Of a stretch of 64,000 nucleotides of DNA, positions 4,566 to 44,534 are shown piece by piece. The notes below the pieces were generated by a model that was given only the letters and a program-made list of their open reading frames with translations, searched no databases and was not told the DNA's origin. Numbering within the stretch: the stretch's first letter is position 1; the number at the start of each line of letters is the position of its first letter. This stretch comes from a virus. Its lineage: Duplodnaviria > Caudoviricetes. The stretch spans positions 1-64,000 of the IMG/VR virus record IMGVR_UViG_3300035227_000232; one strand, 5' to 3'. Made by a program: the position numbers and the translations under genes.

Positions 4566-4642
4566 TGGTACTTCCGCTGGGACTCGAACCCAGAACCCTC
4601 GGTTTAGAAAACCGATGCTCTATCCAATTGAGCTACGGAAGC
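4566..4642 (-). tRNA. tRNA-Arg (anticodon TCT), CCA encoded
   Basis: Cloverleaf GCTTCCG/CGGAAGT acceptor, GCTC/GAGC D-stem, TCGGT-TTTCTAA-ACCGA anticodon arm, CTGGG-TTCGAGT-CCCAG T-arm, ACCA end; 77 nt. Confidence 0.97.
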
Positions 4643-6957: not shown

Positions 6958-7383
6958 ATGACAGTACTGGATGCGACAATGGAACTCTTCACTTTCTTCC
7001 AATCGAACGATTGCTTTGAAATAAACAAGGATTTTTCTGCCGTAGTCCAAATCACGGATAATCCTGAGCAAGATAGGGCTGCTGTCCAGTGCGCTTTAGA
7101 GGAGATGGAGGAATTCGGAGTCCTTAGACATCACGAGTCTGATAGTACGACTCATTACATCTTGAAGAAATCTCTTGACTCGAACGAACAAGAAGTCAAG
7201 ATCGCGCCGATGACCGCCGTGGGAGTCTCTAAAGCGATAAACGGATTCTGCCACATCATCGAAGACTATAAGGACGAATGTGATCCATTAGCCATCGAAG
7301 AGAAGGACATCCAAAATTTAGTCTTTATTGTCGGGTTTCTTGCTCATCAAGGGGCTCAACAAGAAGAAGAACAAAAAGAGTGA
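6958..7383 (+). CDS. Hypothetical acidic protein
   Basis: ORF track; natural-looking composition. Confidence 0.7.
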   Translation: MTVLDATMELFTFFQSNDCFEINKDFSAVVQITDNPEQDRAAVQCALEEMEEFGVLRHHESDSTTHYILKKSLDSNEQEVKIAPMTAVGVSKAINGFCHIIEDYKDECDPLAIEEKDIQNLVFIVGFLAHQGAQQEEEQKE

Positions 7384-7394
7384 GAATCTCTTTT

Positions 7395-7776
7395 CCTGTG
7401 GATAAAGATAGCCACAAGGTTTCCTGAGGCAGGGTGATTTTAGCAAAGTAGCCAGACGCCAGTAATGGTGACAGGTGCGCGGTGTCCGCATATTCAAAGC
7501 CAAAAGGAAAGTAGCACCCCAGAGTATACGCTTTGGAAAAAACTGATGGGTAGCCCCCATTGTAATGGCCCGACGTGTGATATCATATCAGGGTTAACCG
7601 ATGTAATGAGTTTTTAAGCATAGTTTCTCAGCCTGTAATCAGGTAGTCGGTTCCAACTTAGGTTGGTTCGTGTCAGTCCGCAGAACGTCCCATCTGCATG
7701 AAAAACACTGGGCCTCAGAGGAAAGTAAAACATTACTGAGGACACGGAAGCCCCCTTAATCGGGGGTTTTCTGTCC
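7395..7776 (+). ncRNA. Candidate large structured RNA (family unknown; strand inferred)
   Basis: ~530 nt gap with no credible ORF; at least ten nested helices found by eye, including long-range pairs and a GUAA tetraloop; ends in a long GC hairpin. Confidence 0.6.
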
Positions 7777-7913
7777 TTATTTCCTAGCGGAAAGTTGCAC
7801 ACTACGCAATGACTGTGTAATATGATCATAGATACTAATGTTAATAATGCTTTTTTATCCGAGAACCATGCAAAGCTTGACATTAGGGTTAACTCCCAGA
7901 CTTAATAACCAAA

Positions 7914-8525
7914 ATGGAAAATAACTTTAGATGTCGCTTCATCGGCCTTGCTGGCGTGGCCACTGCTGGCAAAGATACATTCTTCAAGCTCCTCTCCCAA
8001 AGGTTAGATGATGTGAAACGCTATGCTCTGGCTGACAAACTTAAGTCAGAACTCCGTGGCTTTGTTGGTCACTATTATGAAGTAGATATCATGTCGTGTG
8101 ATCCAAAGACCAAAGAAAAACTCAGACCTTTAATGGTTTTTCATGGGTTAATGATGAGAGATAGAACCGAAGGTCGATACTGGATTAGATGCTTAACGGA
8201 AAAAATGGAAGACGATGATCCAGAAGGAATAGTCGTAATAACTGATATAAGATTTGCCGAATATGGGAAAAATGATGAAATCTCTTGGTTGAAAAATAAA
8301 ATTGGCGGGAAATTGGTTTTTATAAACAGGCATAAAATCATAAGTGGCGTAAAAGTTTATGTCGATCCTCCTAATTTAGAGGAGACTAGGAATAATGACT
8401 CACTCAAAAAATCCGCAGACTACATTATCGATTGGCCTACTATGGACGGGACTGAAGAAGAAATAGAAAAGCAACTCGCTCCCTACGTCGATAAGTTTAT
8501 TGAATGGTACGGGAAGGATGTCTAA
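7914..8525 (+). CDS. Deoxynucleoside monophosphate kinase (T4 gp1/T5 dnk-like)
   Basis: P-loop IGLAGVATAGKDT, ALADKLK and VVITDIRFAE; TTGACA at 7877-7882 upstream. Confidence 0.8.
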   Translation: MENNFRCRFIGLAGVATAGKDTFFKLLSQRLDDVKRYALADKLKSELRGFVGHYYEVDIMSCDPKTKEKLRPLMVFHGLMMRDRTEGRYWIRCLTEKMEDDDPEGIVVITDIRFAEYGKNDEISWLKNKIGGKLVFINRHKIISGVKVYVDPPNLEETRNNDSLKKSADYIIDWPTMDGTEEEIEKQLAPYVDKFIEWYGKDV

Positions 8526-9231: not shown

Positions 9232-10338
9232 ATGCACCCCGAAATTGCCGTCAACGTTGCTCTGAACGGCGTCTCTTTCGGTCAGGTCTCAATCGGGTTG
9301 TTAAGGGAAATGCATAGGAGAGGAATGTCTCCATGCATCTTCCCGATCAACCCTCAGAATGTAGACTTGTCCGCTCAAGAACTGCCTGAAGAATTTAGAA
9401 GCTGGTTAAACGAATGTTTAGCCAAATCTTTAAGGACTCACAAGAGAGATACCCCGTCTTTCAAACTGTGGCATCTTAATGGTTCTCTTGACTCTGTAAG
9501 TAAGGATCAATTCTTATTTACATTCTATGAACTCGATCAGCCGACGGCTGAAGAGATGAACATAGTGAGGAACCAGAAGAAAGTCTTGGTAAGCTCCAAT
9601 TATACTAAATCGATACTTGAGGCGAGTGGTGCAAACAATATAGGGTTTGTCCCCCTGTTCTTCGACGAGCATAACTTTAGCCAAACAGAAAAAGCTAAAG
9701 ATAATAGTTACTTTAAGGACGGGAGGATAACTTTCAACCTAACTGGCAAGTTGGAAAGAAGGAAAAATCACCATAAGTTAATTAAGGCTTGGGCTAAAAA
9801 ATATGGCGATGATCCTAAGTATTTTTTACAATGCGCTATCTACAACGGATTCCTTAAGCCCGAGGAAAACAACTCTACCATCGCTGCTATATTAGAAGGA
9901 AAAAAATTCTTTAATATTAACTTCCTTGGATTCATGGCGAAGAACGAACTCTATAATGACTACCTTAATTCTGGGGACATTATTATAGGAGGGAGTGGGG
10001 GAGAAGGCTGGGGATTACCAGAGTTTCATTCGGTCGCCCTAGGAAAGCATTCTGTGATACTCAACGCTACCGCTTATAAGGATTGGGCAGACGATATAAA
10101 TTCCGTTATGTTTAATGCTTCAGGCAAAGTAGAAGCATACGACGGAAAGTTCTTTATTAAGGGACAACCATTCAATCAAGGATCGACTTTCGATTTCGAA
10201 GAAGAAGAATTCCTTGATGCTTGTGATAGAGCGATTGAAAGAGTCAAGAACGAAAGAATTAACGAAGCTGGGTTAACTCTACAGAAGAAATTCACTGTAG
10301 AAAATACTGTAAATCAAATTTTTAAGGAGTGTGAATAA
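9232..10338 (+). CDS. GT-B glycosyltransferase (GT4-like)
   Basis: GKLERRKNHHKLIKAW and SGGEGWGLPEFHSVALGK (GT4 ExFGLPxxEA-like motif). Confidence 0.8.
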   Translation: MHPEIAVNVALNGVSFGQVSIGLLREMHRRGMSPCIFPINPQNVDLSAQELPEEFRSWLNECLAKSLRTHKRDTPSFKLWHLNGSLDSVSKDQFLFTFYELDQPTAEEMNIVRNQKKVLVSSNYTKSILEASGANNIGFVPLFFDEHNFSQTEKAKDNSYFKDGRITFNLTGKLERRKNHHKLIKAWAKKYGDDPKYFLQCAIYNGFLKPEENNSTIAAILEGKKFFNINFLGFMAKNELYNDYLNSGDIIIGGSGGEGWGLPEFHSVALGKHSVILNATAYKDWADDINSVMFNASGKVEAYDGKFFIKGQPFNQGSTFDFEEEEFLDACDRAIERVKNERINEAGLTLQKKFTVENTVNQIFKECE

Positions 10339-11401
10339 TAAAACTGCCATATTTTGGCCCTACTTATACGATAGCGCGGTCAGCGACAAAAGTTGGTCTT
10401 GGGAACCAAGATACCAATTGATCGCAGAAGCTCTAAGGAAAGAAGGGTTCACTATCTTAAATCACCCAAGATTCAATTGTGATCTCGGTGAAAGTATCCC
10501 CTATGAAGGAGAGGAAAAATGTGATGTCGTAATTTACAACCATTGCGACGCGGGCGAGGTAAGAGGAGACGTAATAAATGCTGAACGTACTTGGTTTTTC
10601 AAGCCTACTGTTCCAGATGATTTTCAAACGACTTTAGATACCCTCGGGTATGGTTCTTACTCTTCCGTCACTTACGAAAGGCCCGACTACCTTAACATTG
10701 ACGAAGTCTTCATTGATAAGTTCTTCGAAGAGACCGTAAAAGGGTGGGTAGATAAAAACAGTTCTAAATGGGGAGATAACCATTTCTCTATCGGGTCAGA
10801 AAATATAGAAGGCCCATACGCTCTTTTCCTTGGCCAGTGTGGCGGAGATAGCGTAGTGAACAGACAGGACTTCGGTAGCTATTTTGCTAAGATGGAAACT
10901 ATAATCTCTGAGCTTTCGAGAGTTTATAAGAAGAAGATAGTGGTGAAGCTGCACCCATACACGAACGGAAAAGACTATAAAGAAGGAATTGATCAAGACT
11001 TTATAAAAAGGCTAACATCAGTTTATCAGGGGATTTCAGATAAGATAACTGTCGTGGGAGACTTCTCATCTATCCACGATTATCTTCCTCAATGCGAATT
11101 TGTAGTAACTGGCAACTCTGGTTCTGGGTTTGAGGCAATGATGCATCACAAACCGATCATATCTTTCTGTAAACCAGAATACCATTGGATTACTTTCGAC
11201 TTAAGGAAAGTATGCGAACTAGGAAGAGCTATTCATACAGAAGATTGGTTCGATAAAGAAGCAAGTGATCGGTTTCTTTATTGGTACATGAGAAAATACT
11301 GTTTCTTCGATTTAGATTCCGCACAATTCAGAGTCAGAGAATTACTGGACGAGGAAAAAAACAAATTCATCAAAAAATTCTATGCCGATCTATCAATATA
11401 G
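10331..11401 (+). CDS. Capsule polysaccharide synthesis protein, KpsS/KpsC-like
   Basis: IVVKLHPY and SIHDYLPQCEFVVTGNSGSGFEAMMHHKPII motifs. Confidence 0.65.
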   Translation: MNNKTAIFWPYLYDSAVSDKSWSWEPRYQLIAEALRKEGFTILNHPRFNCDLGESIPYEGEEKCDVVIYNHCDAGEVRGDVINAERTWFFKPTVPDDFQTTLDTLGYGSYSSVTYERPDYLNIDEVFIDKFFEETVKGWVDKNSSKWGDNHFSIGSENIEGPYALFLGQCGGDSVVNRQDFGSYFAKMETIISELSRVYKKKIVVKLHPYTNGKDYKEGIDQDFIKRLTSVYQGISDKITVVGDFSSIHDYLPQCEFVVTGNSGSGFEAMMHHKPIISFCKPEYHWITFDLRKVCELGRAIHTEDWFDKEASDRFLYWYMRKYCFFDLDSAQFRVRELLDEEKNKFIKKFYADLSI

Positions 11402-17041: not shown

Positions 17042-17058
17042 AAAACCCAACTAGATTG

Positions 17059-17088
17059 AGGCCCCCTTTCGAGGGGGTCTTTTTTTTT
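17059..17088 (+). terminator. Rho-independent terminator
   Basis: gccccct-TTCG-agggggt stem-loop followed by a long T run. Confidence 0.9.
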
Positions 17089-19178: not shown

Positions 19179-19521
19179 TCTCAATGAAGAGGAAGTCATC
19201 TTGGATAATAACGGGGCAAGCGTTTCTGAGGTGCATATTGTGCTTCAAGTCTGGCAAGACCTAAGGAAGTCCAAGATTATACATCCTGAAGATAGAGTAA
19301 TAGAAGCAATACTCGAACAGGTTCTCAGGCATGAATATAATGGTGACATACCTAAAGGATATGATGCAGAACAAGGAGTCATGAACTTTGCGCCGAATGA
19401 AGACGGAGCCTTGTCTCAAGTAGAAAAAATAGAGAGCCCGCGCTTTGAAATGCCCCAAGACTACAATGTAGATCAAGGAGGAGGACCTATGTTCGATGAT
19501 CAGGGCAACATTGTAAAATGA
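19159..19521 (+). CDS. Hypothetical acidic protein
   Basis: ORF track; overlaps both neighbours. Confidence 0.6.
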   Translation: MKEYKISLNEEEVILDNNGASVSEVHIVLQVWQDLRKSKIIHPEDRVIEAILEQVLRHEYNGDIPKGYDAEQGVMNFAPNEDGALSQVEKIESPRFEMPQDYNVDQGGGPMFDDQGNIVK

Positions 19522-20396
19522 TAACGAATACAAGCATAGGTCATTACGGAAGGCTGGGGAATCAAATGTTCCAATATTGCCTCTTATTCGCTGTATCCAA
19601 AAAATTAGGACGCGAAATTGTTCTTCCTATCGAAAATGAACGCCGAGTTAAAGGGAGATTCAATCCAGTCATAAGCAAAGAAGACGTATATGGTCTGGAC
19701 TTGTTTAAGGGTTTCGATATAGATGCCCATACTGCAACCCATAATGAACTTTTAGATAGGATAGAATATAAATACAATGAAACGTATAGTGGTTATTGTC
19801 CCGATGTTTTTACAACGCCCGACAATACTGATTTTAAAGGATACTTTCAGTACTGGAAATATTTCGAAGGCATGTTTGATGAGATCAGGGAAGAATTCAC
19901 TTTCTTAAATTCAATTGAATCGATAGCTCTCGAAAGGATGAATGATCTTTCGGGAGGACAGAAAACGATAGGCATCCATGTCAGAAGAGGGGATGGCCTT
20001 CAAGACAATGATCGTTTCCAAATCCTATATCCCTTAGACTACTACAGTAAAGGTATTGAGATAATAAAGTCACCCTTGGAAGAAGAAGTTAAAATCGTCG
20101 TTTTCTCTGATGATACTGATTGGTGTCAGGAAAATATAAAATTCGATAATATGGTTGTCGCTGACAAATGGAAAGCGGAGAAGGGTGCTAACCTAGAGAA
20201 CGAACACATAATTGATTTATGCATGATGACCATGTGTGACCATTTGGTGATGGCAAACAGTACATATAGCTGGTGGGGTGCTTTCCTAATGAGGAATAAA
20301 TCAGGCAGAGTCGTCGTACCAAATGAATGGTGGGGGTGGGGGCTTAAACAGAATAGCGAGGAATTTTTAAGGTTACCGCATTGGATTTCGATATGA
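19518..20396 (+). CDS. Alpha-1,2-fucosyltransferase family (GT11)
   Basis: GRLGNQMFQY, IHVRRGD, VFSDD and ANSTYSWWGA motifs. Confidence 0.9.
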   Translation: MITNTSIGHYGRLGNQMFQYCLLFAVSKKLGREIVLPIENERRVKGRFNPVISKEDVYGLDLFKGFDIDAHTATHNELLDRIEYKYNETYSGYCPDVFTTPDNTDFKGYFQYWKYFEGMFDEIREEFTFLNSIESIALERMNDLSGGQKTIGIHVRRGDGLQDNDRFQILYPLDYYSKGIEIIKSPLEEEVKIVVFSDDTDWCQENIKFDNMVVADKWKAEKGANLENEHIIDLCMMTMCDHLVMANSTYSWWGAFLMRNKSGRVVVPNEWWGWGLKQNSEEFLRLPHWISI

Positions 20397-24671: not shown

Positions 24672-25928
24672 ATGAAAAAATTATCATTGATCGGACTCGG
24701 AAAGCTAGGACTACCTTTAGCCACAGTCTTCGCTAGTAAAGATATCTATACTATAGGAATCGATGTGGATTCCTCCAAGATAGATGGGTTAAACGAAAAC
24801 AGGCTCCCATTCCACGAAACAGATTTAGAGGACAGTTTCTCCAGTAGCAGAGACCATCTCCATTTTACCGAAAACTTTAAAGACGCAATTAACGAAACTG
24901 ATATAAGCGTTATTCTGGTCAACACGCCTTCAGATAATGAGAAGAAATCATTCTCTAACGCATACATAAAGTCTTCTCTTACTAGCTTGTGTGCAGAGCT
25001 TAAAAATAGTTCAAAGGATTACCATCTAATCGTTATAAGCAGTACGGTAATGCCTACTACTTGTTCCAAGGTCGTAGTCCCTTTAATAGAGGAGGTCTCT
25101 GGCAGAAAGATCAATGAAGGTTTCGGGCTCTGCTATATTCCAGATTTAGTTGCCCTCGGCTCCATCATCAGAGACTTTAAAAACCCAGACTTATTGATAG
25201 TCGGAGAAAGCGATAAGAAAGCTGGGGACATGGCTTTAGAATATTATAGTCTTATAATTGATAATGAAGCTCCTGTCCAAAGGATGTCTGTCATCGATGC
25301 TGAGATTACGAAAGTGAGCCTGAATGCTTACATAACCATGAAAATCAGTTTTGCTAACTTCATCGGCAATATATGTGACCGTATAGAGGGAGCGAATTCT
25401 GGCAATATAACTTCCGCCTTGGGGAAAGACAGAAGAATCTCCCCTTACTATATAAAAGCAGGACTAGCGTTCGGTGGCACTTGTTTCCCAAGGGATACTT
25501 GGGCATTCGATGAATTTTCTACTCAATTAGGTCTAAATGCAGTCCATGTAAAAGCAGCAGAGGAAATAAATAAGATGCAGCACGATGTTTTATATGACAA
25601 AGCAGTTGGCCTTAACCGAAGTAAAATCGCTATCTTAGGATTAGGATTTAAAGCTAACACACCAGTAGTAGTAGAATCTCCAGCTATCATTTTAGCAGAA
25701 AGACTATCAAATAATGGCTATACGGTAAACTTATGTGATCCGTTAGCACTTATTGAAGCGAAGTTAACCTTAGGAAATAAGGCGAACTACTTCGACAGCA
25801 TGGAAGCGTGCCTTACATCCTCCGAGTGTTGCGTCATTGCAACTCCTTATCTCGGATTTAAGGATATAACAAAACTCGTCGGGGAAGATTTTCCGATCCT
25901 AGATTGCTGGGATATTTTAAACAAATAA
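24672..25928 (+). CDS. UDP-glucose/GDP-mannose dehydrogenase family
   Basis: GLGKLGLP, VNTP, STVMP, FGGTCFPRD and LGLGFKANT motifs. Confidence 0.9.
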   Translation: MKKLSLIGLGKLGLPLATVFASKDIYTIGIDVDSSKIDGLNENRLPFHETDLEDSFSSSRDHLHFTENFKDAINETDISVILVNTPSDNEKKSFSNAYIKSSLTSLCAELKNSSKDYHLIVISSTVMPTTCSKVVVPLIEEVSGRKINEGFGLCYIPDLVALGSIIRDFKNPDLLIVGESDKKAGDMALEYYSLIIDNEAPVQRMSVIDAEITKVSLNAYITMKISFANFIGNICDRIEGANSGNITSALGKDRRISPYYIKAGLAFGGTCFPRDTWAFDEFSTQLGLNAVHVKAAEEINKMQHDVLYDKAVGLNRSKIAILGLGFKANTPVVVESPAIILAERLSNNGYTVNLCDPLALIEAKLTLGNKANYFDSMEACLTSSECCVIATPYLGFKDITKLVGEDFPILDCWDILNK

Positions 25929-25940
25929 CTAACACATAAA

Positions 25941-26909
25941 ATGAGTAAAAAAATATTAGTGACCGGAGGCGGAGGATTTATCGGAGGATATTTAGTTAAA
26001 GACTTCGTAGAGAAAGGGTATCAAGTCACCATAGCTGACATTAAACCATTCGATCAATGGTATCAGCTTTTCGAGGAATGCGACAACCATTCCCTTGACA
26101 TGGAGGTAAAGGAAAATTGCTACAAGATGATAGATGGACAAGACGAAGTCTATAACTTGGCTTGTAATATGGGTGGCATGGGGTTCATCGAAAATAATAA
26201 AGCCATGTGTATGCAAGCGGTACTCGTCAATACTCATATGCTTATGGCATGTAAGGAAGTACATAACCCCAAGAAATATTTCTATTCTTCGAGTGCATGT
26301 GTATACAACGCTTCGAAACAAACCAGCGTCGATCTTGTGGCCCTAAAAGAAGCAGATGCTTACCCAGCAGATGCAGAGGACGGATACGGATGGGAGAAAC
26401 TATTTAGCGAAAGGATGTGTCGCCACTTTAGCGAGGACTTCGGAATCAACGCCTACATAGCTCGATTTCACAATGTGTATGGGCCACTCGGCACGTATGA
26501 TGGAGGAAGAGAGAAAGCCCCTGCTGCTATCTGTCGCAAAGTAATTCAAGCCAAACTAGACGGTACGAGTGATATCGAAATCTGGGGAGACGGGGAACAA
26601 ACGAGGAGCTTCATGTATATTGATGACTGCGCTACTGGCATCAATAAGTTAATGGAGAGTGGTTGGCATGAACCTATCAACCTCGGCAGGGACGATCTAA
26701 TTTCGATTAACCATCTCGTGACCCTTGCGGAAGGCTTTGCGGGGATAAAGTTAAATAGAAATTATAAACTCGATGCCCCCTTGGGAGTGCGTGGTAGGAA
26801 TAGTGATAATACCCTCATTCAAAATGTTCTCGGGTGGCAACCCAGTATTATAATGGAAGAAGGTCTCAAGAAGACATACGATTGGATATATGGGGAAATG
26901 ACAAAATGA
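25941..26909 (+). CDS. GDP-mannose 3,5-epimerase-like extended SDR
   Basis: TGGGGFIG, NLACNMGGMGFI, SSACVY, YGWEK and GGREKAPAAICRK motifs. Confidence 0.85.
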   Translation: MSKKILVTGGGGFIGGYLVKDFVEKGYQVTIADIKPFDQWYQLFEECDNHSLDMEVKENCYKMIDGQDEVYNLACNMGGMGFIENNKAMCMQAVLVNTHMLMACKEVHNPKKYFYSSSACVYNASKQTSVDLVALKEADAYPADAEDGYGWEKLFSERMCRHFSEDFGINAYIARFHNVYGPLGTYDGGREKAPAAICRKVIQAKLDGTSDIEIWGDGEQTRSFMYIDDCATGINKLMESGWHEPINLGRDDLISINHLVTLAEGFAGIKLNRNYKLDAPLGVRGRNSDNTLIQNVLGWQPSIIMEEGLKKTYDWIYGEMTK

Positions 26910-27622
26910 ACCAGCAGCAAAAATGTGTGGTAGAATTAAGACCCTTCCCCATGTGGGGCCCACACTTGGTCGGCAAGGCTGACGAAGGCGAAGATGATTT
27001 TGTTATAGACTTTTTTAATGGAGAGAAAGGACTTACGGTCGTTGATGTCGGCGCAGCAGATGGAGTTACTGGTAGCAATTCTTTTCGATTGATTACTGAG
27101 TACGGGTGGACAGGTTTGTTAATTGAGCCTCACCCAGCATTTACTAGATATCTGAAAAAGTTATACAAAATGTTTCCCTGTAATGTTTCTATCCTCGAGG
27201 TGGCCATAGACAAAGAAGACGGAGAAAAAACTTTCCACTTCCCTCCAATGCACGCGCATGGGATGGGAACCATTTCGGAGGAATTTAGATATGAAGCACA
27301 GAAAGAATCATTTGAGTGTCCAAAAACTGGATTAAAAGGAGAAACCGCTGTGAAAACTCTTACTCTCAATAGCGTGCTGGAAAATTCTGAATTAGAGATA
27401 GACGAAATAGATTTTCTTTCCATCGACACAGAAGGACATGACTTGGTTGTGTTGGAATCTTTAGATTTCGAAAAATATTCTCCCAAAATCATCTGTATCG
27501 AACAATACATAAGCAAGGTTAAAGGAGAAGCTGAAAGGTGGACCGAAAGACTCCGCTTGAAAATGAAAAATTTAGGCTACTTTAATATAAAAAAAACGCA
27601 TTCTAATCTACTCTTCTCATGA
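26906..27622 (+). CDS. FkbM-family methyltransferase
   Basis: VDVGAADG, LIEPHP and SIDTEGHD motifs; start trimmed to ATG 26906. Confidence 0.8.
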   Translation: MNQQQKCVVELRPFPMWGPHLVGKADEGEDDFVIDFFNGEKGLTVVDVGAADGVTGSNSFRLITEYGWTGLLIEPHPAFTRYLKKLYKMFPCNVSILEVAIDKEDGEKTFHFPPMHAHGMGTISEEFRYEAQKESFECPKTGLKGETAVKTLTLNSVLENSELEIDEIDFLSIDTEGHDLVVLESLDFEKYSPKIICIEQYISKVKGEAERWTERLRLKMKNLGYFNIKKTHSNLLFS

Positions 27623-28671
27623 AAAAAGTTTTGGTAACTGGAATACTGGGGCAAGACGGTGCTAATATGGCCGAGTACTTACTTGCAAAAGACGAGCCTA
27701 TTAAGGTGTATGGTATGATGCGGAGAACAGCTACTCCTAATTTTATTAATGCTATTGCCTTTAAGGACCATGAAGATTTCAAATTGGTTTACGGAGACCT
27801 TGCTGACGAAGTGAGTATTAATAATTTGGTTAAGTCAATTCAACCAGACTATTTTGTAAACTTCGGAGCGAACAGCTTTGTCGGTTGCAGTTGGGACATG
27901 CCAATACAGGTTTTTGATGTAAACGCTTTAGGAGTAATAAGGTGTCTCGAAGCTATAAGAAAACACTACCCTCCTTGTAAGTTTTACAGTGCTGGGAGCA
28001 GTGAGGAAATGGGTGATGTAGAATATTCTCCTCAAGATTTGGAACACCCAATCAAACCGAGAAGTCCATACTCCGCATCGAAAGCAGCAGCACGACACAT
28101 CGTTAAGGTCTATAGAGAGTCTTATAATATGTTTGCTGTCCACGGAGTCCTGTTTAATCACGAAGGAACGAAACGCGGTGAAGAGTTTGTCACCAGAAAG
28201 ATAACTAAAGGGGTTGCTAGAATCCATAAAGCCATTAAGGACGGAGAGGACTTTGACCCCATTGAGTTGGGCAACCTCGACGCAAGGAGAGATTGGAGTG
28301 ACTCTGAAGACTTCGTAGATGGCGTATGGCTAATGCTGAATCAAGAGGAGCCTAAAGACTATATCTTGGCCAGCGGAGTATCCTACAGCATAAAAGATTT
28401 TGTAGAAAGAGCCTTCAAACACGCTGATCTCGCAGGAAGCTGGATTGAAAATGAAGGTGACCCATTGTCTACTAAATATGTTCTAAACCTCCATGACTAC
28501 AAGGTTGCAGTGAAAGTAAACGAGGAATACTATAGGCCAGCGGAAGTATCGAGCCTCACGGGAGATGGCAGTTTAGCAGTCACTGAATTAGGATGGAGCC
28601 CGAAAGTCACATTTGACATGCTCGTAGAGAAGATGGTAAAATGGGACCTTGACGAAGAAAGAAATACATAA
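27619..28671 (+). CDS. gmd: GDP-mannose 4,6-dehydratase
   Basis: TGILGQDG, SSEEMG, PRSPYSASK, LFNHEG, FVTRKIT and LGNLDARRDW motifs. Confidence 0.93.
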   Translation: MKKVLVTGILGQDGANMAEYLLAKDEPIKVYGMMRRTATPNFINAIAFKDHEDFKLVYGDLADEVSINNLVKSIQPDYFVNFGANSFVGCSWDMPIQVFDVNALGVIRCLEAIRKHYPPCKFYSAGSSEEMGDVEYSPQDLEHPIKPRSPYSASKAAARHIVKVYRESYNMFAVHGVLFNHEGTKRGEEFVTRKITKGVARIHKAIKDGEDFDPIELGNLDARRDWSDSEDFVDGVWLMLNQEEPKDYILASGVSYSIKDFVERAFKHADLAGSWIENEGDPLSTKYVLNLHDYKVAVKVNEEYYRPAEVSSLTGDGSLAVTELGWSPKVTFDMLVEKMVKWDLDEERNT

Positions 28672-35299: not shown

Positions 35300-36078
35300 G
35301 TAATAAAACGATCCCATTATTCAAAAGCCACTACAGCCTTGGGAAGAGCATCCTAACTCTCTCCGACGAGGACGATCCTTCTGGTCCTGACTCTATCATA
35401 GGAATTTGTAAAAATCATAATCTCAGTCAAATGTTTCTAGTGGAAGACTCCATGAGTGGTTTCCTCGAGGCTTATACGAATTCTGAAAAAAACAAAATCC
35501 AATTAATATACGGGATACGTTTAACAATTTGCAGGGACATGGAGAAAAAGAATGAGCAGTCCTTATCCGAGGAAAGCAAATATATCATTTTCGCCAAAAA
35601 CAAAAACGGATACAAAAAGCTTATAAAAATTTATTCAGAAGCAGCTACGGAAGGCTTTTACTACGTCCCTCGTTTCGACTTCGATAGGCTCAAAGAAAAC
35701 TGGGATGATAAGAGTTTAGAACTATGTGTTCCATTCTACGATTCTTTCTTATTTAAGAACTGCCTTCTATCTAAAAGGGTATTACCCAATGTGGATTTTA
35801 CCGAGATGACCTTCTTCGAAGAAGAAAATAATCTCCCTTTCGATGGCTTACTAAGAAGAAGGTTGAGGGATTATACTGACGATGGGAAAAAATATAATTC
35901 AATCCCCGTGCAAACAATTTATTATAAAGGGAGAGAAGATTTTCTTGCTTACCTTACCCATCGTTGCATTAACAAAAGGAGTACCTTAAACAAACCTAAC
36001 TTAGACCACATGCACTCTAGGGAATTCTGTTTTGAAAGCTGGCTTGAAGGAGAAGGAGGCAAGTTATGTGCGGAATAG
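35296..36078 (+). CDS. Stand-alone PHP domain of DNA polymerase III alpha
   Basis: KSHYSL, LIYG, IFAKNKNGYKKLIKI and YVPRFD pattern of the DnaE N-terminus. Confidence 0.8.
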   Translation: MSNKTIPLFKSHYSLGKSILTLSDEDDPSGPDSIIGICKNHNLSQMFLVEDSMSGFLEAYTNSEKNKIQLIYGIRLTICRDMEKKNEQSLSEESKYIIFAKNKNGYKKLIKIYSEAATEGFYYVPRFDFDRLKENWDDKSLELCVPFYDSFLFKNCLLSKRVLPNVDFTEMTFFEEENNLPFDGLLRRRLRDYTDDGKKYNSIPVQTIYYKGREDFLAYLTHRCINKRSTLNKPNLDHMHSREFCFESWLEGEGGKLCAE

Positions 36079-37931
36079 TCGGCTATATAGGGCCTAAAGA
36101 CGCCTACGAGGAGGTTTACAGAGGTTTGATTGACCTAGAATACCGAGGGTATGATTCTTGCGGTATAGCCCTCTTAAATGAATCCTCAGGCCATGTACAC
36201 ATAGAGAAAGAGATTGGACCCCCTTCCTTATCTCTTCCCAAAACAATCGCTGAAAAGAACTCTATCGGGGAAATAAAGGGCGGGGTCGCGATAGGGCATA
36301 CTAGATGGGCTACTCATGGGAAAGTCACAATTGAAAACACTCATCCTCATAAAAGCGCAGATGGAAAGTTCCATCTAGTGCATAACGGAATCATCGAAAA
36401 CCACTCTGAATTAAAGACGATGCTTATCGATGAAAAGTATTGTTCTTTTTATTCTGATACCGATAGTGAAGTTCTAGTAAACCTTATCTCTTATTACTAC
36501 GACAAATTTGAGAGCTTAGAGATGGCCATTACGAAGGCACTATCAAAAGTGGAGGGTACTTTCGGGATAGGGGTTATTTGCTCTGACAGGCCAAACTTAT
36601 TAATAGCAGCAAGGCGTAGCTCTCCCATCTCTATAGGACTGAGCGAAAATGGAAACTACTTATCTAGCGATTCTTCAGTATTCTCTGGCAATTTCTCTGG
36701 AGTCGTTGATCTAGACGACAACAGGATAGCTTGGATCACTGGAAACGATGTCAGAGTGCAGGATTTTTATCAGTCTGAAGTTCCTCTTGAGATTAAGGAT
36801 ATACAGGATCGGCTAAAAGATAATTCTACTGATAGCCATCCTCTGCTGGGCGAGTATTCCTCACATATGGAAAAAGAAATATTCGAACAGCCCGATTCTA
36901 TACGGAGAGCAATAAGAGGAAGACTAAAAGAAGGAAAAATAAAAATACCTTCCATTGAAAAAATTTACCCCGATAGGATTCTGATTATCGGGTGCGGTAC
37001 ATCATATCATGCCGGACTTCTAGGGAAATATTATTTCGAAGACATATCAGGAATTCCTACTGAAGTCGAAACAGCTTCAGAATTTAATTATCGGTCAGTC
37101 CCAAAAGAAGAAAACGTTTTGGCGATATTTATAAGCCAATCCGGGGAGACAGCAGACACAATAACTTCTTTACTAAAATGCAGAGACTTAGGGTATGATC
37201 TTTTTACTATAACAAACTCTGTTTGTAGTACATTAGCTAGAGAGGCTGGCAAAGGAATATATCAATACGCGGGTAAAGAAGTGTCGGTCGCATCGACGAA
37301 AACATTCACATCACAAGCAACGATTCTATTAATGATGGCGTGCTACTTTGGTAAGGCAGAAGCAGATTACATATCCAAGATTCCAGAACTAATAAAAGAA
37401 GTTCTCGAAGGAAATGAAATTGATGATTTGGTGAATTCATTGCCATCTCGAGCAATGTACGCATCTGGACCGTCACTCCAGACATTAGAGGAGGTCATCT
37501 TCCTCGGTAGGCAGTCAATGTATCCCGTGGCACTTGAAGCCTCCCTTAAGCTCAAAGAAGTGTCTTATATCAACAGTCAGGCTTACCCTTCTGGTGAAAT
37601 AAAACATGGCCCCTTAGCCTTAATCACAGAAGATACCCCTGTGATTCTATTCGCTGCTCAAAATAATTTAGAGAAAAAGAATTCCTCTACAAGTAGTGAA
37701 GTATCATTAAGAGGTGGGGAGGTCGTTATAGTAAGAAAATCTAACCAACAGATAACAGGGAAAAAATTTGCTGAAGTAGTAATGCCGGATTGCAATGACT
37801 ACGTTGCTCCGATCCTGTCCGTAATATTCTTCCAACTCTTTGCTCTCCGTGTCGCAATCAGGAAACATCAATTTGAGAACATAAATATAGACAAACCTAG
37901 AAACTTAGCTAAATCTGTAACTGTAGAATGA
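36066..37931 (+). CDS. glmS: Glutamine--fructose-6-phosphate aminotransferase
   Basis: MCGIVG, LEYRGYDS, GHTRWATHG, HNGIIEN, SQSGETADT, VASTKTF and PRNLAKSVTVE motifs. Confidence 0.96.
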   Translation: MCGIVGYIGPKDAYEEVYRGLIDLEYRGYDSCGIALLNESSGHVHIEKEIGPPSLSLPKTIAEKNSIGEIKGGVAIGHTRWATHGKVTIENTHPHKSADGKFHLVHNGIIENHSELKTMLIDEKYCSFYSDTDSEVLVNLISYYYDKFESLEMAITKALSKVEGTFGIGVICSDRPNLLIAARRSSPISIGLSENGNYLSSDSSVFSGNFSGVVDLDDNRIAWITGNDVRVQDFYQSEVPLEIKDIQDRLKDNSTDSHPLLGEYSSHMEKEIFEQPDSIRRAIRGRLKEGKIKIPSIEKIYPDRILIIGCGTSYHAGLLGKYYFEDISGIPTEVETASEFNYRSVPKEENVLAIFISQSGETADTITSLLKCRDLGYDLFTITNSVCSTLAREAGKGIYQYAGKEVSVASTKTFTSQATILLMMACYFGKAEADYISKIPELIKEVLEGNEIDDLVNSLPSRAMYASGPSLQTLEEVIFLGRQSMYPVALEASLKLKEVSYINSQAYPSGEIKHGPLALITEDTPVILFAAQNNLEKKNSSTSSEVSLRGGEVVIVRKSNQQITGKKFAEVVMPDCNDYVAPILSVIFFQLFALRVAIRKHQFENINIDKPRNLAKSVTVE

Positions 37932-42036: not shown

Positions 42037-42594
42037 ATGCAAACACAATTTTATAAAGCGAACCCGAAAGGGACAGGGGCTGCATGTCAGTTCTATCTCA
42101 GCAGTAGCAGTATTATGCTCAGCATGATAAAGCAAGACAGTTGGGACGCAGAAAAGAAAAAGGGCGACTTTAAGAAAAACAAGAACACCCCGACGGGGAG
42201 TCTTTTCATGAAGCTTACTAGAGTAGAAACCGCTGGACTAATAAGAGGGATCGAACGCTGTCAGGAGTGGAGTTGCTATCACCGAAGCCCCACTCAGGAA
42301 GCGTCTCTTAAATTAACTATCTGGAGAGACGATGAATCTGGAGGTAGCCCAAAAGGATATGGAATTACTGGGAATAAGAAGGTAACCACCACAGAACGAG
42401 CAGGGGAAACTGCGTCCTTCTTCGTAACTCTGACCCTAGATGAGGCTCGGTTATTAAAAAGCGATTTAGAAAGCTTCCTTTATGTTACTCTTCAGTCCAC
42501 CGGACATGGGAATAAGACAGGAAAAACGATAGGAGTAAAAGGGAACGCTGGGCCTAAGGAGACTTATTCTAATAGGAGCAACTATCAACAATGA
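42037..42594 (+). CDS. Hypothetical protein, possibly ssDNA-binding (PC4/Whirly-like)
   Basis: Beta-rich pattern and low-complexity tail directly after dnaE; fold assignment is a guess. Confidence 0.35.
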   Translation: MQTQFYKANPKGTGAACQFYLSSSSIMLSMIKQDSWDAEKKKGDFKKNKNTPTGSLFMKLTRVETAGLIRGIERCQEWSCYHRSPTQEASLKLTIWRDDESGGSPKGYGITGNKKVTTTERAGETASFFVTLTLDEARLLKSDLESFLYVTLQSTGHGNKTGKTIGVKGNAGPKETYSNRSNYQQ

Positions 42595-44534
42595 GCGATA
42601 AACTCAAAGTATTAGTTCATACTGATTCGAGCTTAGCAAAAACTGGGTTTGGTCGAAACGCTAGGGCTATACTCTCTCATCTTTATAATACAAAGAAATA
42701 TGAGTTAGTCCATTATTGCATAGGGACACAGGAAAATTCTCCGGTGCTGAAGAAGACCCCTTGGCGTTCAGTAGGTTGTTTGCCTTCAAACCAATCTGAG
42801 TTGGAAAGAATAAATAGAGACCCTACCTTCGCTAGGATGGCTGGATATGGTTCATACTTTATAGATAAGGTAATAGACGAGGAAAAACCTGATGTTTACA
42901 TAGGGGCACAAGATATCTGGGGGCTTGATTACACCGTAGATAAATTTTGGTTTAACAAGATACCTAGTGTAATCTGGACAACTCTAGATTCTCTTCCGTT
43001 ACTTCCCACTGCCGTAGAAAAGGCGAAGAGCATAAAGGACTATTGGATTTGGGCTGACTTCGCCACCAAAGAGATGCACCGTCTTGGGCACAAGCACGTC
43101 AGAACGATGCGCGGATCAGTAGATACTCAATTTTTCCACAAACTTCCAGACTCAGAAAAAACGGAACTAAGGAAGAGACACGGAATCTCCGAAGATGTTT
43201 TCATAATTGGGTTCGTGTTTAGAAACCAACTAAGAAAAACCATATATTCTCTTTTAGAGGGTTTCAAAATGTTTAAATCTCGAGAGCCAAAGGCTCAAAG
43301 AGCTAAACTCCTTCTGCATACTCATTTCTCGGAAGGCTGGGACATCCCTAAGTTGGCAAGCGAATATGGGGTTGACATGGAGGATATACTAACCACTTAC
43401 GTTTGCCGTACTTGTAAATTCTATTTTATTGCAACGTTTCAAGGGCAGGATAAAAAATGCCCCGCTTGTGGATCGGAGAAAGAGGCAGGACTCATCACCA
43501 CTAACACTAATAATGGTGTTACAGAAAGCCAACTTAATGAAGTATATAATCTGATGAACGTATATTGCCACCCATTCACTTCTGGTGGTCAAGAAATACC
43601 GATACAAGAAGCGAAGCTTACTGAACTAATCACATTAGTGACGAACTATAGTTGTGGAGAGGACCTTTGCGTTGATGAAGCTTGCTCTATACCTCTCGAT
43701 TGGAAAGCATACAGGGAACCTAATACTCAATTTATTAAAGCCCAAACTCATGAAAGCTCGATATCTAAACAGTTAGCGAAGGTTTTCAAAATGAAACCAG
43801 CCCAACGAAAAAAGATGGGCGAAAAGGCTAGAGAATGGGTCATCAATAACTTTTCGGTAGAAGTTATATCTAAGCAAATAGAAGATTTTTTGGACGGATG
43901 TGAGAAAACCGATTTTGACTTTAAAAATACGGAAGAGAAAAAAGACCCGAATATACAAATCCCGACAGGGTTAAGTGATAAGGATTGGCTGATATGGATG
44001 TACCACAACATTCTAAAGATGGAGCATGTGGACGAAAAAGATGACGGATACAAATACTGGACTCAAGAATTGGAAAAAGGTACAGACAAGAAACAGATAG
44101 AAGACTATTTTAGACATGTAGCGGTCAATGAAAACAGCAAGGGAGATAATAAAGGCGATCTCACTGACGTCCTTGATGAAGACGATGATGGGAAAAGGAT
44201 GCTATACGTAATGCCTGAGGCGATAGGAGATATATACATATCGACTAGCCTCTTCCGGTCAATGAAAGAACAATATCCAGATTATAATTTATATGTCGCT
44301 GTACGTCCTGAATTCTCAGAGGTCCTAGATGGGAATCCATACGTACATAAGACGATTCCTTATGCTCCGCAGATGGATAGCCTCCCTTGGTTAGAAGGAT
44401 CGAAGACTCACAAAGGTTACTTCAAGATTGCGTTCCTTCCTTTTGTGAATACTCAGAAAATCCTGACTTGGATGCATAACGGATTAACAAACATAGCTTA
44501 CAAAGATTTGAGGTACGAAAATGCACTTGATTGA
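42591..44534 (+). CDS. GT4-like glycosyltransferase with Zn-ribbon insertion, fused to the N-half of a GT9
   Basis: RNQLRK and GGQEIPIQEA motifs; CRTC...CPAC; C-terminal MPEAIGD...RSMKEQYPD...NPYVHK. Confidence 0.75.
   Translation: MSDKLKVLVHTDSSLAKTGFGRNARAILSHLYNTKKYELVHYCIGTQENSPVLKKTPWRSVGCLPSNQSELERINRDPTFARMAGYGSYFIDKVIDEEKPDVYIGAQDIWGLDYTVDKFWFNKIPSVIWTTLDSLPLLPTAVEKAKSIKDYWIWADFATKEMHRLGHKHVRTMRGSVDTQFFHKLPDSEKTELRKRHGISEDVFIIGFVFRNQLRKTIYSLLEGFKMFKSREPKAQRAKLLLHTHFSEGWDIPKLASEYGVDMEDILTTYVCRTCKFYFIATFQGQDKKCPACGSEKEAGLITTNTNNGVTESQLNEVYNLMNVYCHPFTSGGQEIPIQEAKLTELITLVTNYSCGEDLCVDEACSIPLDWKAYREPNTQFIKAQTHESSISKQLAKVFKMKPAQRKKMGEKAREWVINNFSVEVISKQIEDFLDGCEKTDFDFKNTEEKKDPNIQIPTGLSDKDWLIWMYHNILKMEHVDEKDDGYKYWTQELEKGTDKKQIEDYFRHVAVNENSKGDNKGDLTDVLDEDDDGKRMLYVMPEAIGDIYISTSLFRSMKEQYPDYNLYVAVRPEFSEVLDGNPYVHKTIPYAPQMDSLPWLEGSKTHKGYFKIAFLPFVNTQKILTWMHNGLTNIAYKDLRYENALD

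What the first reader, a model, noticed from the sequence alone, without database searches (positions are those of the whole stretch)
7395..7776. Candidate novel large, multi-branched structured RNA in an otherwise gap-free genome
This is the only long non-coding gap in 64 kb. Local hairpins seen directly: cctgtgg/ccaca-agg 7395-7419; cgcca-GTAA-tggtg 7457-7470 (GNRA loop); tgata/tatca; cctg/cagg; ccaac-ttag-gttgg 7653-7666; gcag/ctgc; terminal ggaca..gccccc/ggggg..tgtcc 7740-7776. Longer-range helices: ttcaaagc 7493-7500 with gctttgga 7530-7537; ggcccg-ac-gtgt 7567-7578 with acac-tgggcc 7705-7714, closing a multiloop; aaccgat 7596-7602 with gtcggtt 7646-7652, closing a 3-way junction. ctgaggc 7424-7430 can pair with gcctcag 7712-7718, which can alternatively pair with ctgagg 7736-7741, so a switch or pseudoknot is possible. 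GTAAT recurs four times. I could not match tmRNA, RNase P, SRP or group I/II intron cores. Large ornate RNAs of unknown function (GOLLD, ROOL) are established in phage contexts; that this is a new member is inference.
Basis: partly seen in the sequence, partly recalled or inferred. Interest (0 to 1): 0.85.

Follow-up and report, generated by a model that had tools for sequence, protein, structure and literature searches.

The report
New multi-pseudoknot RNA in marine phages
The gap holds a gene for a roughly 400-base RNA that folds into a compact knot of 13 helices and four pseudoknots. It is conserved in about 28 uncultivated marine phages and matches no described RNA family, so it is a new large structured RNA whose job is not yet known.

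Summary
About half of its proposed helices were wrong.

- **Family.** I found the same element in about 28 metagenomic phage contigs. Its DNA is about 95% identical between phages whose flanking proteins are only 73-78% identical.
- **Structure.** Covariation supports a 5' hairpin (H0), helices H1 and H5 to H13, a three-way junction and four pseudoknot or loop interactions (PK-A to PK-D). The central domain is 96% paired, with a covariation score of 0.67 against 0.27 in shuffles (0 of 500 shuffles as high).
- **Transcription signals.** The RNA ends at a hairpin with an invariant C/G run and a U-rich tail. One relative (L010) has a near-consensus promoter that would start it at H0.
- **Not a known family.** Rfam 15 gives no match. 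tmRNA, RNase P and group I intron tests fail. There is no conserved ORF.
- **Unexpected feature.** A 23-nt segment of the 3' domain (DR1) is repeated just behind the terminator (DR2). The two copies evolve in concert within each phage (p about 1e-7), and no RNA pairing partner explains this.

Function is unknown. My best guess (about 0.3) is a stable RNA whose DR1 mimics DR2 and so ties it to expression of the downstream replication and nucleotide-metabolism operon. Rivals are a purely trans-acting ornate RNA or ribozyme, a cis-acting leader, and an origin primer.

The parts
7375..7393 (+). H0: 5' hairpin AAAGAG / CTCTTT that overlaps the stop codon of the upstream ORF. It moves with the RNA when the RNA sits elsewhere (L029).
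   Evidence: The stem covaries by eye in the alignment (AAAGGG/CCCTTT, AAAAGG/CCTTTT and others). In L010 a TTGACA-17-TATGAT promoter would place the transcription start just before it.
7395..7419 (+). H1: CCT-GTGG / CCAC-a-AGG hairpin with a bulged A.
   Evidence: helix 1: 93% paired, 4 of 7 pairs with changes on both sides.
7457..7470 (+). Hairpin CGCCA-GTAA-TGGTG (GNRA loop), an insertion specific to the window's clade.
   Evidence: Absent from the other clades in the alignments.
7476..7518 (+). PK-A: hairpin TGCG/CGCA (7476-7490) whose loop GGTG (7481-7484) pairs with CACC (7515-7518).
   Evidence: helices 2 and 3. All 4 pseudoknot pairs show compensatory changes (GGUC/GACC, GGCC/GGCU, GGCU/AGCC, AGCU/AGCU).
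7519..7536 (+). H5: CCAGAG/CTTTGG hairpin. Its loop ATACG (7526-7530) pairs with CGTGT (7669-7673), forming PK-D.
   Evidence: helix 4. PK-D cognate versus non-cognate duplex test gives p = 1e-4, with 12 distinct sequence versions.
7540..7543 (+). PK-C 5' strand: AAAC in the H5/H6 linker pairs with GTTT (7623-7626) in the H9 loop.
   Evidence: helix 1: 4 of 4 pairs compensatory (only AU and GC types), 95% paired; p = 5e-4.
7545..7561 (+). H6: GATGGG / CCCATT hairpin.
   Evidence: 6 of 6 pairs with changes on both sides.
7569..7593 (+). H7: CCC/GGG stem enclosing the conserved CGTG and an optional inner hairpin TGATA/TATCA.
   Evidence: helix 2 (invariant C-G pairs, so uninformative). The inner hairpin is present in about half of the clades.
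7596..7652 (+). Three-way junction: H8 (AACCGAT / GTCGGTT) closes H9 (TGAG 7607-10 / CTCA 7627-30) and H10 (CCTG 7632-35 / CAGG 7640-43). The junction nucleotides GTAA and GGTAG are conserved.
   Evidence: H8 has 7 of 7 pairs compensatory and is 98% paired. U-G pairs read correctly on the + strand only (pair 66-127: CG 12, UG 9).
7653..7666 (+). H11: CCAAC-TTAG-GTTGG hairpin.
   Evidence: Compensatory variants are read directly (CCGAT/ATCGG, CCGAT/GTCGG, CCAGC/GCTGG, TCAGT/ACTGA). No column-wise statistic was computed because MAFFT shifts the register.
7667..7748 (+). 3' domain, closed by H13 (GTGT-CAGT 7670-7677 with ACTG 7735-38 and ACAC 7742-45). It contains H12 (GCAG 7680-83 / CTGC 7694-97), whose loop CCCA (7689-92) pairs with TGGG (7709-12) to form PK-B.
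   Evidence: H13 7 of 7, H12 4 of 5 and PK-B 4 of 4 pairs with changes on both sides. H13 p = 1.7e-5, PK-B p = 2e-3.
7713..7736 (+). DR1: first copy of the co-evolving direct repeat, CCTCAGAGGAAAGTAAAACATTAC.
7740..7776 (+). Terminator-type hairpin: GCCCCC-TTAATC-GGGGG plus the U-rich tail TTTTCTGTCC. A lower stem GGACACGGAA / TTTTCTGTCC extends it.
   Evidence: The C/G run is invariant in 23 of 23 members. The lower stem covaries (p = 0.012).
7783..7805 (+). DR2: second copy of the repeat, CCTAGCGGAAAGTTGCACACTAC. It marks the end of the strongly conserved block.
   Evidence: It overlaps a possible -35 (TTGCAC-17-TAATAT, 7795-7823), which I read by eye only.

Best explanation
Window 7375-7776 (conserved block to 7805), + strand, encodes a roughly 400-nt non-coding RNA. 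It belongs to a previously undescribed family confined, as far as I could search, to one group of uncultivated marine large phages.

**Shown.**
- The RNA folds into 13 helices locked together by four tertiary pairings: PK-A, PK-B, PK-C and PK-D.
- It carries its own promoter in at least some relatives.
- It ends at a C5/G5 hairpin with a U-rich tail.
- Part of its 3' domain (DR1) is duplicated right behind that hairpin (DR2). The two copies evolve in concert.
- No intramolecular Watson-Crick partner explains that concerted evolution.

**Inferred.**
- The terminated transcript accumulates as a compact, stable RNA.
- DR1, displayed on it, mimics DR2, which lies on the read-through transcript (or on the DNA) at the head of the downstream early operon for nucleotide metabolism, replication and glycosylation.
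- Both copies are recognised by the same unidentified, co-evolving factor. The amount of free RNA would therefore set how much of that factor reaches DR2, and so how the downstream genes are expressed.

Confidence that this is a real, new structured RNA is about 0.95. Confidence in the mimicry and titration mechanism is about 0.3.
For: **Conservation.** The gap DNA is about 95% identical while the flanking proteins are 73-78% identical. About 28 members were found by nhmmer, covariance models and a pattern scan.

**Structure.**
- 5' domain: 83.5% paired, covariation score 0.44 against 0.26 in shuffles, 0 of 500 as high.
- Central domain: 96% paired, 0.67 against 0.27.
- 3' domain: 82.6% paired, 0.37 against 0.18.
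- In all three, sliding the 3' partners by 1-3 columns collapses the score.
- Alignment-free tests comparing duplex energies within a phage to those between phages: H13 p = 1.7e-5, PK-B 2e-3, PK-C 5e-4, PK-D 1e-4.

**Strand.** U-G pairs occur on the + strand only.

**Transcription unit.** L010 has TTGACA-17-TATGAT preceded by TG, an 11 of 12 match. Terminator-like hairpins are found in the window and in relatives. A second terminator of the same CCCCC/GGGGG type lies at 17058-17081.

**Direct repeat.**
- DR1 aligns to the DR2 of its own phage with mean score 24.1, against 15.2 for other phages (p = 1e-7).
- There are only two copies in 89 kb.
- DR2 travels with the RNA into the other operon in L029 and L095.
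- No RNA segment covaries with the DR core.

**Read-through.** In L046, L049 and L031 the next ORF starts 15-50 nt after DR2. Those ORFs must therefore be transcribed through the hairpin.
Against:
- The factor proposed to bind DR1 and DR2 is unidentified.
- The neighbouring 141-aa protein is a poor candidate. It is acidic throughout the family (pI 4.3-5.2), although it has a winged-helix fold.
- In the window and in L010, DR2 lies about 100 nt upstream of the next gene, which seems to have a promoter of its own close to its start. There DR2 would reach RNA only by read-through.
- A 400-nt fold with four pseudoknots is far more than is needed to display a 23-nt decoy. The fold very likely has a further function that this model does not explain.
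Confidence: 0.3

Rival explanations
1. A purely trans-acting 'ornate' RNA. The fold itself is the functional unit: a ribozyme, an RNA-only homo-oligomer as in ROOL and GOLLD, or the scaffold of a ribonucleoprotein. DR2 would be a secondary feature, for example a processing or termination aid. Some of the four tertiary pairings could be intermolecular.
For: - Size and complexity: 13 helices and four covarying tertiary pairings.
- Conserved unpaired junction nucleotides: GTAA, GGTAG, AGTTTT and AAGTAG.
- Its own promoter and terminator.
- It relocates as a self-contained module.
- The gene downstream is not constant: dNMP kinase, an unknown ORF of 241-277 aa, or a 115-119-aa ORF that in L029 gives a faint DUF1360 match.
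Against: - It does not explain why DR2, which lies outside the terminated RNA, is as conserved as the RNA and co-evolves with DR1.
- No cleavage site, oligomer or partner protein has been shown.
- Loops are not consistently self-complementary (read).
Confidence: 0.3
2. A cis-acting operon leader. The RNA folds on the nascent transcript and controls whether RNA polymerase passes the C5/G5 hairpin into the long co-directional operon, by attenuation or by processive antitermination as with HK022 put or Bacillus EAR. Alternatively it stabilises or controls the read-through mRNA. DR1 and DR2 would be alternative docking strands.
For: - It is always followed on the same strand by ORFs 15-110 nt after DR2. 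In several clades there is no room for another promoter.
- The conserved block runs past the hairpin.
- In the window's clade the 3' strand of H13 (GACACGGA) overlaps the lower stem of the terminator.
- The operon behind it is about 38 kb, all on one strand.
Against: - No conserved antiterminator overlaps the invariant C5/G5 stem.
- Pairing of DR2 with the terminator tail or with the H13 5' strand is not supported (p about 0.2).
- It is far larger than any known attenuator or put/EAR element.
- Only one other strong + strand terminator lies in the operon.
- The first downstream gene varies.
Confidence: 0.2
3. A replication-origin module. A structured primer or R-loop transcript (as with ColE1 RNA II or T4 oriF) runs into an AT-rich unwinding region, and DR1 and DR2 are iteron-like DNA sites for an initiator.
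For: - The element sits next to the switch of gene orientation and the minimum of cumulative GC skew, near 7 kb.
- Direct repeats that are phage-specific yet matched within a genome behave like iterons.
- AT-rich DNA follows DR2 in many members.
- The phage has UvsX-like recombinase, primase and helicase genes.
Against: - Compensatory changes, G-U pairs and four pseudoknots show selection on an intricate RNA fold, which a primer does not need.
- There are only two repeats, and their spacing of 55-77 bp is not phased.
- The GC-skew switch coincides with the switch of transcription direction, which could explain it by itself.
- No initiator gene was identified, and the neighbouring winged-helix protein is acidic.
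Confidence: 0.07
4. Not a functional RNA: either a small protein-coding gene or only a DNA regulatory region with chance hairpins.
For: The window has ORFs of 50, 80 and 89 aa overlapping the gap.
Against: - These ORFs break into different frames even in close relatives and are absent in other clades. The longest stop-free frame changes strand and frame between members.
- Pair-wise compensatory substitutions far exceed both the shuffled and the slid controls.
Confidence: 0.02

Closest known systems
ROOL and GOLLD RNAs (large ornate RNAs, often in phages and prophages; Rfam; cryo-EM structures in PMC12286853)
   Same: Phage-borne, several hundred nucleotides long, many helices with pseudoknots and loop-loop contacts, no known function, encoded as free-standing genes.
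   Different: No sequence or structure homology: no Rfam match even at E <= 10. It is smaller (about 400 nt against about 580 and 800). It occurs in a marine phage group rather than in Lactobacillales, rumen or lake sources. Oligomerisation is untested. The DR1/DR2 duplication around a terminator has no counterpart that I know of.
tmRNA
   Same: Similar length (about 360-400 nt) and four pseudoknots joined by A-rich linkers.
   Different: No tRNA-like domain, no CCA end and no tag reading frame. ARAGORN and the Rfam tmRNA models find nothing.
Bacterial RNase P RNA
   Same: A large RNA with long-range pseudoknots. The window's DR1 contains AGAGGAAAGT, which resembles conserved region CR-I (recalled from memory).
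   Different: That motif is not conserved in the family: other members have AAGGAGAAAAAG, AAAGAAAAG or AAGGTGA. It lies at the 3' end rather than near the 5' end. There is no P4 partner and no Rfam RNase P match.
HK022 put and Bacillus EAR processive-antitermination RNAs; riboswitch and attenuator leaders
   Same: Structured RNA at the head of a long operon, directly followed by an intrinsic-terminator-type hairpin, with genes that in some members can only be reached by read-through.
   Different: Three to five times larger. No antiterminator competes with the GC stem. It has its own strong promoter and behaves as a movable module. The downstream gene is not constant.
Regulatory mimicry systems (6S RNA, CsrB/RsmZ, ribosomal-protein mRNA operators that mimic rRNA sites; lambda nutL/nutR as phage-specific paired sites)
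   Same: Two copies of one recognition element in different molecular contexts. They are phage-specific but matched within a genome, as boxB is in nutL and nutR of lambdoid phages.
   Different: No binding factor is known here. The copies are only about 75% identical and differ systematically: one extra nucleotide in DR1, and a purine-rich linker in DR1 against a U/A-rich linker in DR2.

Membership tests
Any Rfam 15 family (including GOLLD, ROOL, raiA, OLE, HEARO, 6S, SRP, T-box, riboswitches) | Covariance-model score at or above the family's gathering threshold | tested here: not met
   The only hit at gathering thresholds in the window is the tRNA at 4569-4642. At E <= 10 there are only noise hits of 19 bits or less in 7250-8000. 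Six relatives give nothing relevant at E <= 1.
tmRNA | tRNA-like domain formed by the 5' and 3' ends, plus a tag-peptide reading frame | tested here: not met
   ARAGORN finds only tRNA-Arg in the window. The 5' end is hairpin H0/H1 and the 3' end is a terminator hairpin with a variable loop.
Bacterial RNase P RNA | Universally conserved CR-I (GAGGAAAGUCC) and CR-V strands forming P4 | tested here: not met
   The look-alike motif varies freely between members. No Rfam RNase P match.
Group I intron | Interrupts a host gene, so the flanking exons join into one ORF; P3-P9 core with a G-binding P7 | tested here: not met
   The upstream ORF ends with its own stop codon. The downstream dNMP kinase is full length, with 100% coverage against homologues. 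No Intron_gpI match. The P7 core was not examined by hand.
Intrinsic (Rho-independent) terminator, as the 3' end of the RNA | GC-rich hairpin directly followed by a U-rich tract | tested here: met
   The tail is U-rich but interrupted (TTTTCTGT, TGTTGTGT). Termination itself cannot be tested here.
Riboswitch or attenuator | Conserved alternative pairing that disrupts the terminator stem | tested here: inconclusive
   The H13 3' strand overlaps only the lower extension of the hairpin, and only in some clades. Nothing found competes with the invariant C5/G5 core.
ROOL/GOLLD-type RNA-only oligomer | Homo-oligomeric assembly through intermolecular loop contacts | not testable with these tools
   Covariation cannot tell intramolecular from intermolecular pairing for PK-D or the other loop contacts.
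CRISPR mini-array (repeat-spacer-repeat) | Near-identical repeats flanking a variable spacer | tested here: not met
   The period of 55-77 nt fits, but the repeats are only about 75% identical. The 'spacer' is a conserved hairpin, and DR1 is built into a conserved fold.
Reverse-transcriptase template RNA (retron, or DRT2-like with repeated template ends) | An associated reverse-transcriptase gene | tested here: inconclusive
   No RVT_1 match in the 89-kb record, but the record is estimated to be 56% complete.

The most novel reading that the evidence does not exclude
The RNA is a new class of large functional RNA: either a new ribozyme or RNA-only machine, or a new kind of operon controller. 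In the controller reading, a 400-nt multi-pseudoknot fold presents an internal copy (DR1) of a site that recurs just past its own terminator (DR2), so that RNA folding, termination and downstream expression are coupled by self-mimicry.
Probability: 0.25. Interest if true: 0.9.

Novelty: new variant of a known kind. Interest (0 to 1): 0.75.

Why it matters
Large bacterial and phage RNAs with intricate, well-supported tertiary structure are rare. Almost all of those with a known function are ribozymes or central machines, and the orphans (GOLLD, ROOL, OLE, raiA) have turned out to build unexpected RNA architectures.

This family offers an unusually well-determined secondary and tertiary map from only about 28 sequences. 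At about 400 nt it is small enough for cryo-EM and chemical probing.

It also has a built-in clue to function: the DR1/DR2 pair that evolves in concert around a terminator. That clue makes concrete experiments possible.

The family also marks a poorly known group of marine large phages with extensive nucleotide and sugar metabolism.

Tried and rejected
- **Expression data.** No read mapping was therefore possible, and I did not try to obtain it another way.
- **Cultured relatives.** blastn of the gap and tblastn of both flanking proteins against 50,697 phage records gave no match.
- **Single-protein locus searches and one DNA pattern in IMG/VR** found nothing. Relatives came from protein-cluster look-ups and an alignment-based scan.
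- **Host clue.** A pattern scan of 185,579 prokaryote genomes gave 67 hits. All are chance matches: at most 27 bits with model R2, against at least 63 bits for true members.
- **The 141-aa neighbour as protein partner.**
  - Its predicted structure is confident (pLDDT 91.6): a winged helix plus two helices. Its closest solved folds are BlaI/MecI-like, but the matches are weak.
  - The whole family is acidic.
  - The RNA occurs away from it (L029, L095), and the protein occurs without the RNA within 2.5 kb in seven loci. Of five of those records searched whole with R2, only G002 (L095) held it.
  - I rejected it as a likely binder.
- **Pairing of the 5' segment with DR1 or DR2:** no co-variation.
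- **H9 U-tract with the DR1 core:** none.
- **Terminator tail or H13 5' strand with DR2:** none.
- **Scan of the whole RNA for any partner of the DR cores:** none.
- **DR as a genome-wide promoter or operator motif:** there are only two copies.
- **Helical phasing of DR1 and DR2:** not conserved.
- **Reverse transcriptase nearby:** none found.
- **Many internal terminators, as an argument for antitermination:** only one further strong + strand site.
- **mafft-qinsi** was unavailable. MAFFT register errors in H5, H11 and H13 lowered some column statistics.
Full report
**1. What the sequence is**

The window is the first 64 kb of an 89,413-bp IMG/VR virus record, estimated to be 56% complete.
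- Genes left of about 6.8 kb run leftward and include dCMP deaminase and dUTPase.
- From 6958 onward about 38 kb of genes run rightward. They include a 141-aa ORF, a dNMP-kinase-like gene, glycosyltransferases, both RNR subunits, sugar-nucleotide enzymes, a UvsX-like recombinase, helicase, primase and DNA polymerase.
- The gap 7384-7913 lies between the 141-aa ORF and the kinase gene.

**2. Checking the observation**

- The + strand of the gap folds better than dinucleotide shuffles: z = -3.08, with none of 100 shuffles as good. The - strand gives z = -2.12.
- Rfam 15 gives no match at gathering thresholds and only noise at E <= 10. ARAGORN finds no tmRNA.
- The three small ORFs that overlap the gap are not conserved. 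They split into different frames even in close relatives, and the longest open frame changes strand and frame from member to member.

**3. Relatives**

- No cultured phage has this DNA or either flanking protein.
- Look-ups of protein clusters gave metagenomic contigs with the same gene order and a gap of 490-550 nt.
- In the closest set the gap DNA is about 95% identical, although the flanking proteins are only 73-78% identical. That is the signature of a constrained non-coding element.
- An alignment-based scan for the kinase in IMG/VR gave 80 loci.
- nhmmer, two covariance models, a motif scan and a whole-record search then gave about 28 members in at least a dozen divergent lineages.
- Model R2 separates members (63-114 bits) from everything else: no other hit at E <= 0.5 in 0.5 Mb.
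- A motif scan of 185,579 prokaryote genomes found only chance matches.

**4. Structure**

Three domain alignments fitted to covariance models give the following results. In each case no shuffle out of 500 reached the observed score, and sliding the 3' partners by 1-3 columns collapsed it.

| Domain | Cells paired | Covariation score (observed / shuffled) |
|---|---|---|
| 5' domain | 83.5% | 0.44 / 0.26 |
| Central domain | 96.0% | 0.67 / 0.27 |
| 3' domain | 82.6% | 0.37 / 0.18 |

The consensus, in window coordinates:
- H0, 7375-7393.
- H1, 7395-7419.
- A hairpin with a GNRA loop at 7457-7470, found only in the window's clade.
- PK-A: hairpin 7476-7490, whose loop GGTG pairs with CACC 7515-18.
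- H5, 7519-7536.
- H6, 7545-7561.
- H7, 7569-7593.
- H8, 7596-7602 with 7646-7652. It closes a three-way junction with H9 and H10.
- H11, 7653-7666.
- H13, 7670-77 with 7735-45. It encloses H12 (7680-97) and PK-B (CCCA 7689-92 with TGGG 7709-12).
- A terminator-type hairpin, 7740-7776.

Two further long-range pairings emerged:
- **PK-C.** AAAC 7540-43 pairs with GTTT 7623-26 in the H9 loop. Only AU and GC pair types occur and there are no one-sided changes.
- **PK-D.** The H5 loop pairs with the segment just after H11. This occurs in 12 different sequence versions.

I also ran an alignment-free test on the helices that MAFFT aligns badly. It compares duplex energy between the two segments taken from the same phage with segments taken from different phages. 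Results: H13 p = 1.7e-5, PK-B 2e-3, PK-C 5e-4, PK-D 1e-4.

U-G pairs fit the + strand only.

In the window itself PK-D (CGTGT 7669-73) and the upper part of H13 (GTGT 7670-73) use the same bases. In other clades the two strands are adjacent, or overlap by two bases.

**5.

- **Right:** H1, the GNRA hairpin (although it is clade-specific), H8 and its three-way junction, H10, H11, H12, and the terminal hairpin.
- **Wrong:**
  - ttcaaagc/gctttgga; the local hairpin H5 covaries instead.
  - ggcccg..gtgt with acac..tgggcc; both halves have other partners.
  - ctgaggc/gcctcag as a conserved helix; it is strong only in this clade, with p = 0.39 across clades.

**6. Transcription signals**

- The hairpin 7746-7771 plus its T-rich tail is scored as terminator-like in the window and in relatives.
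- Its C/G run is invariant in 23 of 23 members, whereas every other helix covaries.
- A second terminator of the same CCCCC/GGGGG type lies at 17058-17081, so this looks like the phage's usual terminator form.
- In L010 a TTGACA-17-TATGAT promoter with an upstream TG lies inside the last codons of the upstream gene. It would start the RNA a few bases before H0.
- By eye, several other clades have a TAnnnT hexamer in the same place. I did not test this statistically.
- The window's own clade has none, so there the RNA may be co-transcribed with the 141-aa gene.

**7. Genomic setting**

- In most members the order is 141-aa gene, RNA, then either the kinase or an unknown ORF of 241-277 aa.
- In L029 and L095 the whole module (H0 to DR2) sits on the other strand, directly after the dUTPase gene.
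- The RNA is therefore a self-contained module. It stays in the early nucleotide-metabolism neighbourhood but is not tied in cis to one gene.
- The 141-aa protein is predicted with confidence (pLDDT 91.6) as a winged helix plus two long helices, with weak BlaI/MecI-like matches.
- That protein family is uniformly acidic (pI 4.3-5.2), which argues against it binding nucleic acid.

**8. The direct repeat**

- A 23-24-nt stretch of the 3' domain (DR1, 7713-7736) recurs just behind the hairpin (DR2, 7783-7805).
- Each phage has its own version in both copies. The mean alignment score within a phage is 24.1, against 15.2 between phages (p = 1e-7). The newly found L095 shows the same pattern.
- DR1 always has one extra base. 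The linker before 'ACAC' is purine-rich in DR1 and U/A-rich in DR2.
- Spacing is 55-77 nt and is not phased.
- There are no other copies in 89 kb.
- DR2 is as conserved as the RNA, and conservation stops right after it.
- No segment of the RNA covaries with the DR core. The obvious alternative pairings are also not supported.
- In several clades the next ORF begins 15-50 nt after DR2. It must then be transcribed through the hairpin, so DR2 is present on RNA at least there.

**9. Interpretation**

It is firmly shown that this is a real, new, intricately folded RNA (about 0.95). Its function is not shown. I weigh four readings:
- **Mimicry (0.3).** A stable free RNA displays DR1, which competes with DR2 on the read-through transcript or on the DNA for one co-evolving factor. 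This would link the RNA's abundance to expression of the downstream operon. It is the only reading that uses every observed feature. But the factor is unknown, and the fold is far larger than a decoy needs.
- **Purely trans-acting ornate RNA, ribozyme or oligomer (0.3).** This fits the complexity but leaves DR2 unexplained.
- **Cis-acting leader controlling passage of the hairpin (0.2).** This fits the read-through requirement, but no antiterminator competes with the invariant stem.
- **Origin primer with iteron-like repeats (0.07).** This fits the position at the GC-skew and gene-orientation switch, but not the RNA-level selection.

A coding or purely DNA explanation is excluded by the covariation (0.02).

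**10. Novelty**

- The RNA is not in Rfam 15.
- A 2023 survey reported thousands of candidate structured RNAs in IMG/VR, on average about 67 bases long (PMC10690425). I could not check whether any fragment of this RNA is among them.
- I place it as a new family within the known kind 'large ornate phage-borne RNAs of unknown function'. Its distinctive addition is the co-evolving repeat around the terminator.

Noticed in passing
window 48724-62130 (-): A single ORF of 4468 aa, next to ORFs of 515 aa or more (62143-63999, -) and a 737-aa tail-fibre-like gene with collagen-like repeats.
   Followed up: no
window 46505-48718 (-), especially 47000-48000: GC content jumps to 0.59 against about 0.41 elsewhere, inside the tail-fibre or collagen-like gene.
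   Followed up: partly
window 4566-4642 (-): tRNA-Arg (anticodon TCT), the only Rfam or ARAGORN hit in the window.
   Followed up: no
window 6958-7383 (+) and homologues in 23 loci: A conserved, uniformly acidic (pI 4.3-5.2) protein of about 125-150 aa with no Pfam or PHROG family. It is predicted with pLDDT 91.6 as a winged helix plus two long helices. It usually lies just upstream of the RNA but also occurs without it.
   Followed up: partly
window 9232-11401, 19518-20396, 24672-28671, 36066-37931, 42591-44534 (+): An unusually rich set of sugar-nucleotide genes sits among the replication genes: several glycosyltransferases, UDP-glucose dehydrogenase, two nucleotide-sugar epimerases and a GlmS-like amidotransferase. 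This hints at glycosylated DNA or virion components.
   Followed up: no
window 17058-17081 (+): A strong intrinsic terminator, GAGGCCCCC-TTTCGA-GGGGGTCTT followed by T8. It has the same CCCCC/GGGGG form as the hairpin that ends the RNA.
   Followed up: no
L010 3478-3506 (+): A near-consensus promoter (TTGACA-17-TATGAT with TG, 11 of 12 matches) is embedded in the last codons of the 141-aa-homologue gene and points into the RNA.
   Followed up: partly
window 7875-7913 (+): A perfect TTGACA, invariant in close relatives, lies about 35 nt before the kinase start codon, followed by the conserved ACTTAATAA. It may be a promoter giving a very short or absent leader. I read this by eye only.
   Followed up: no
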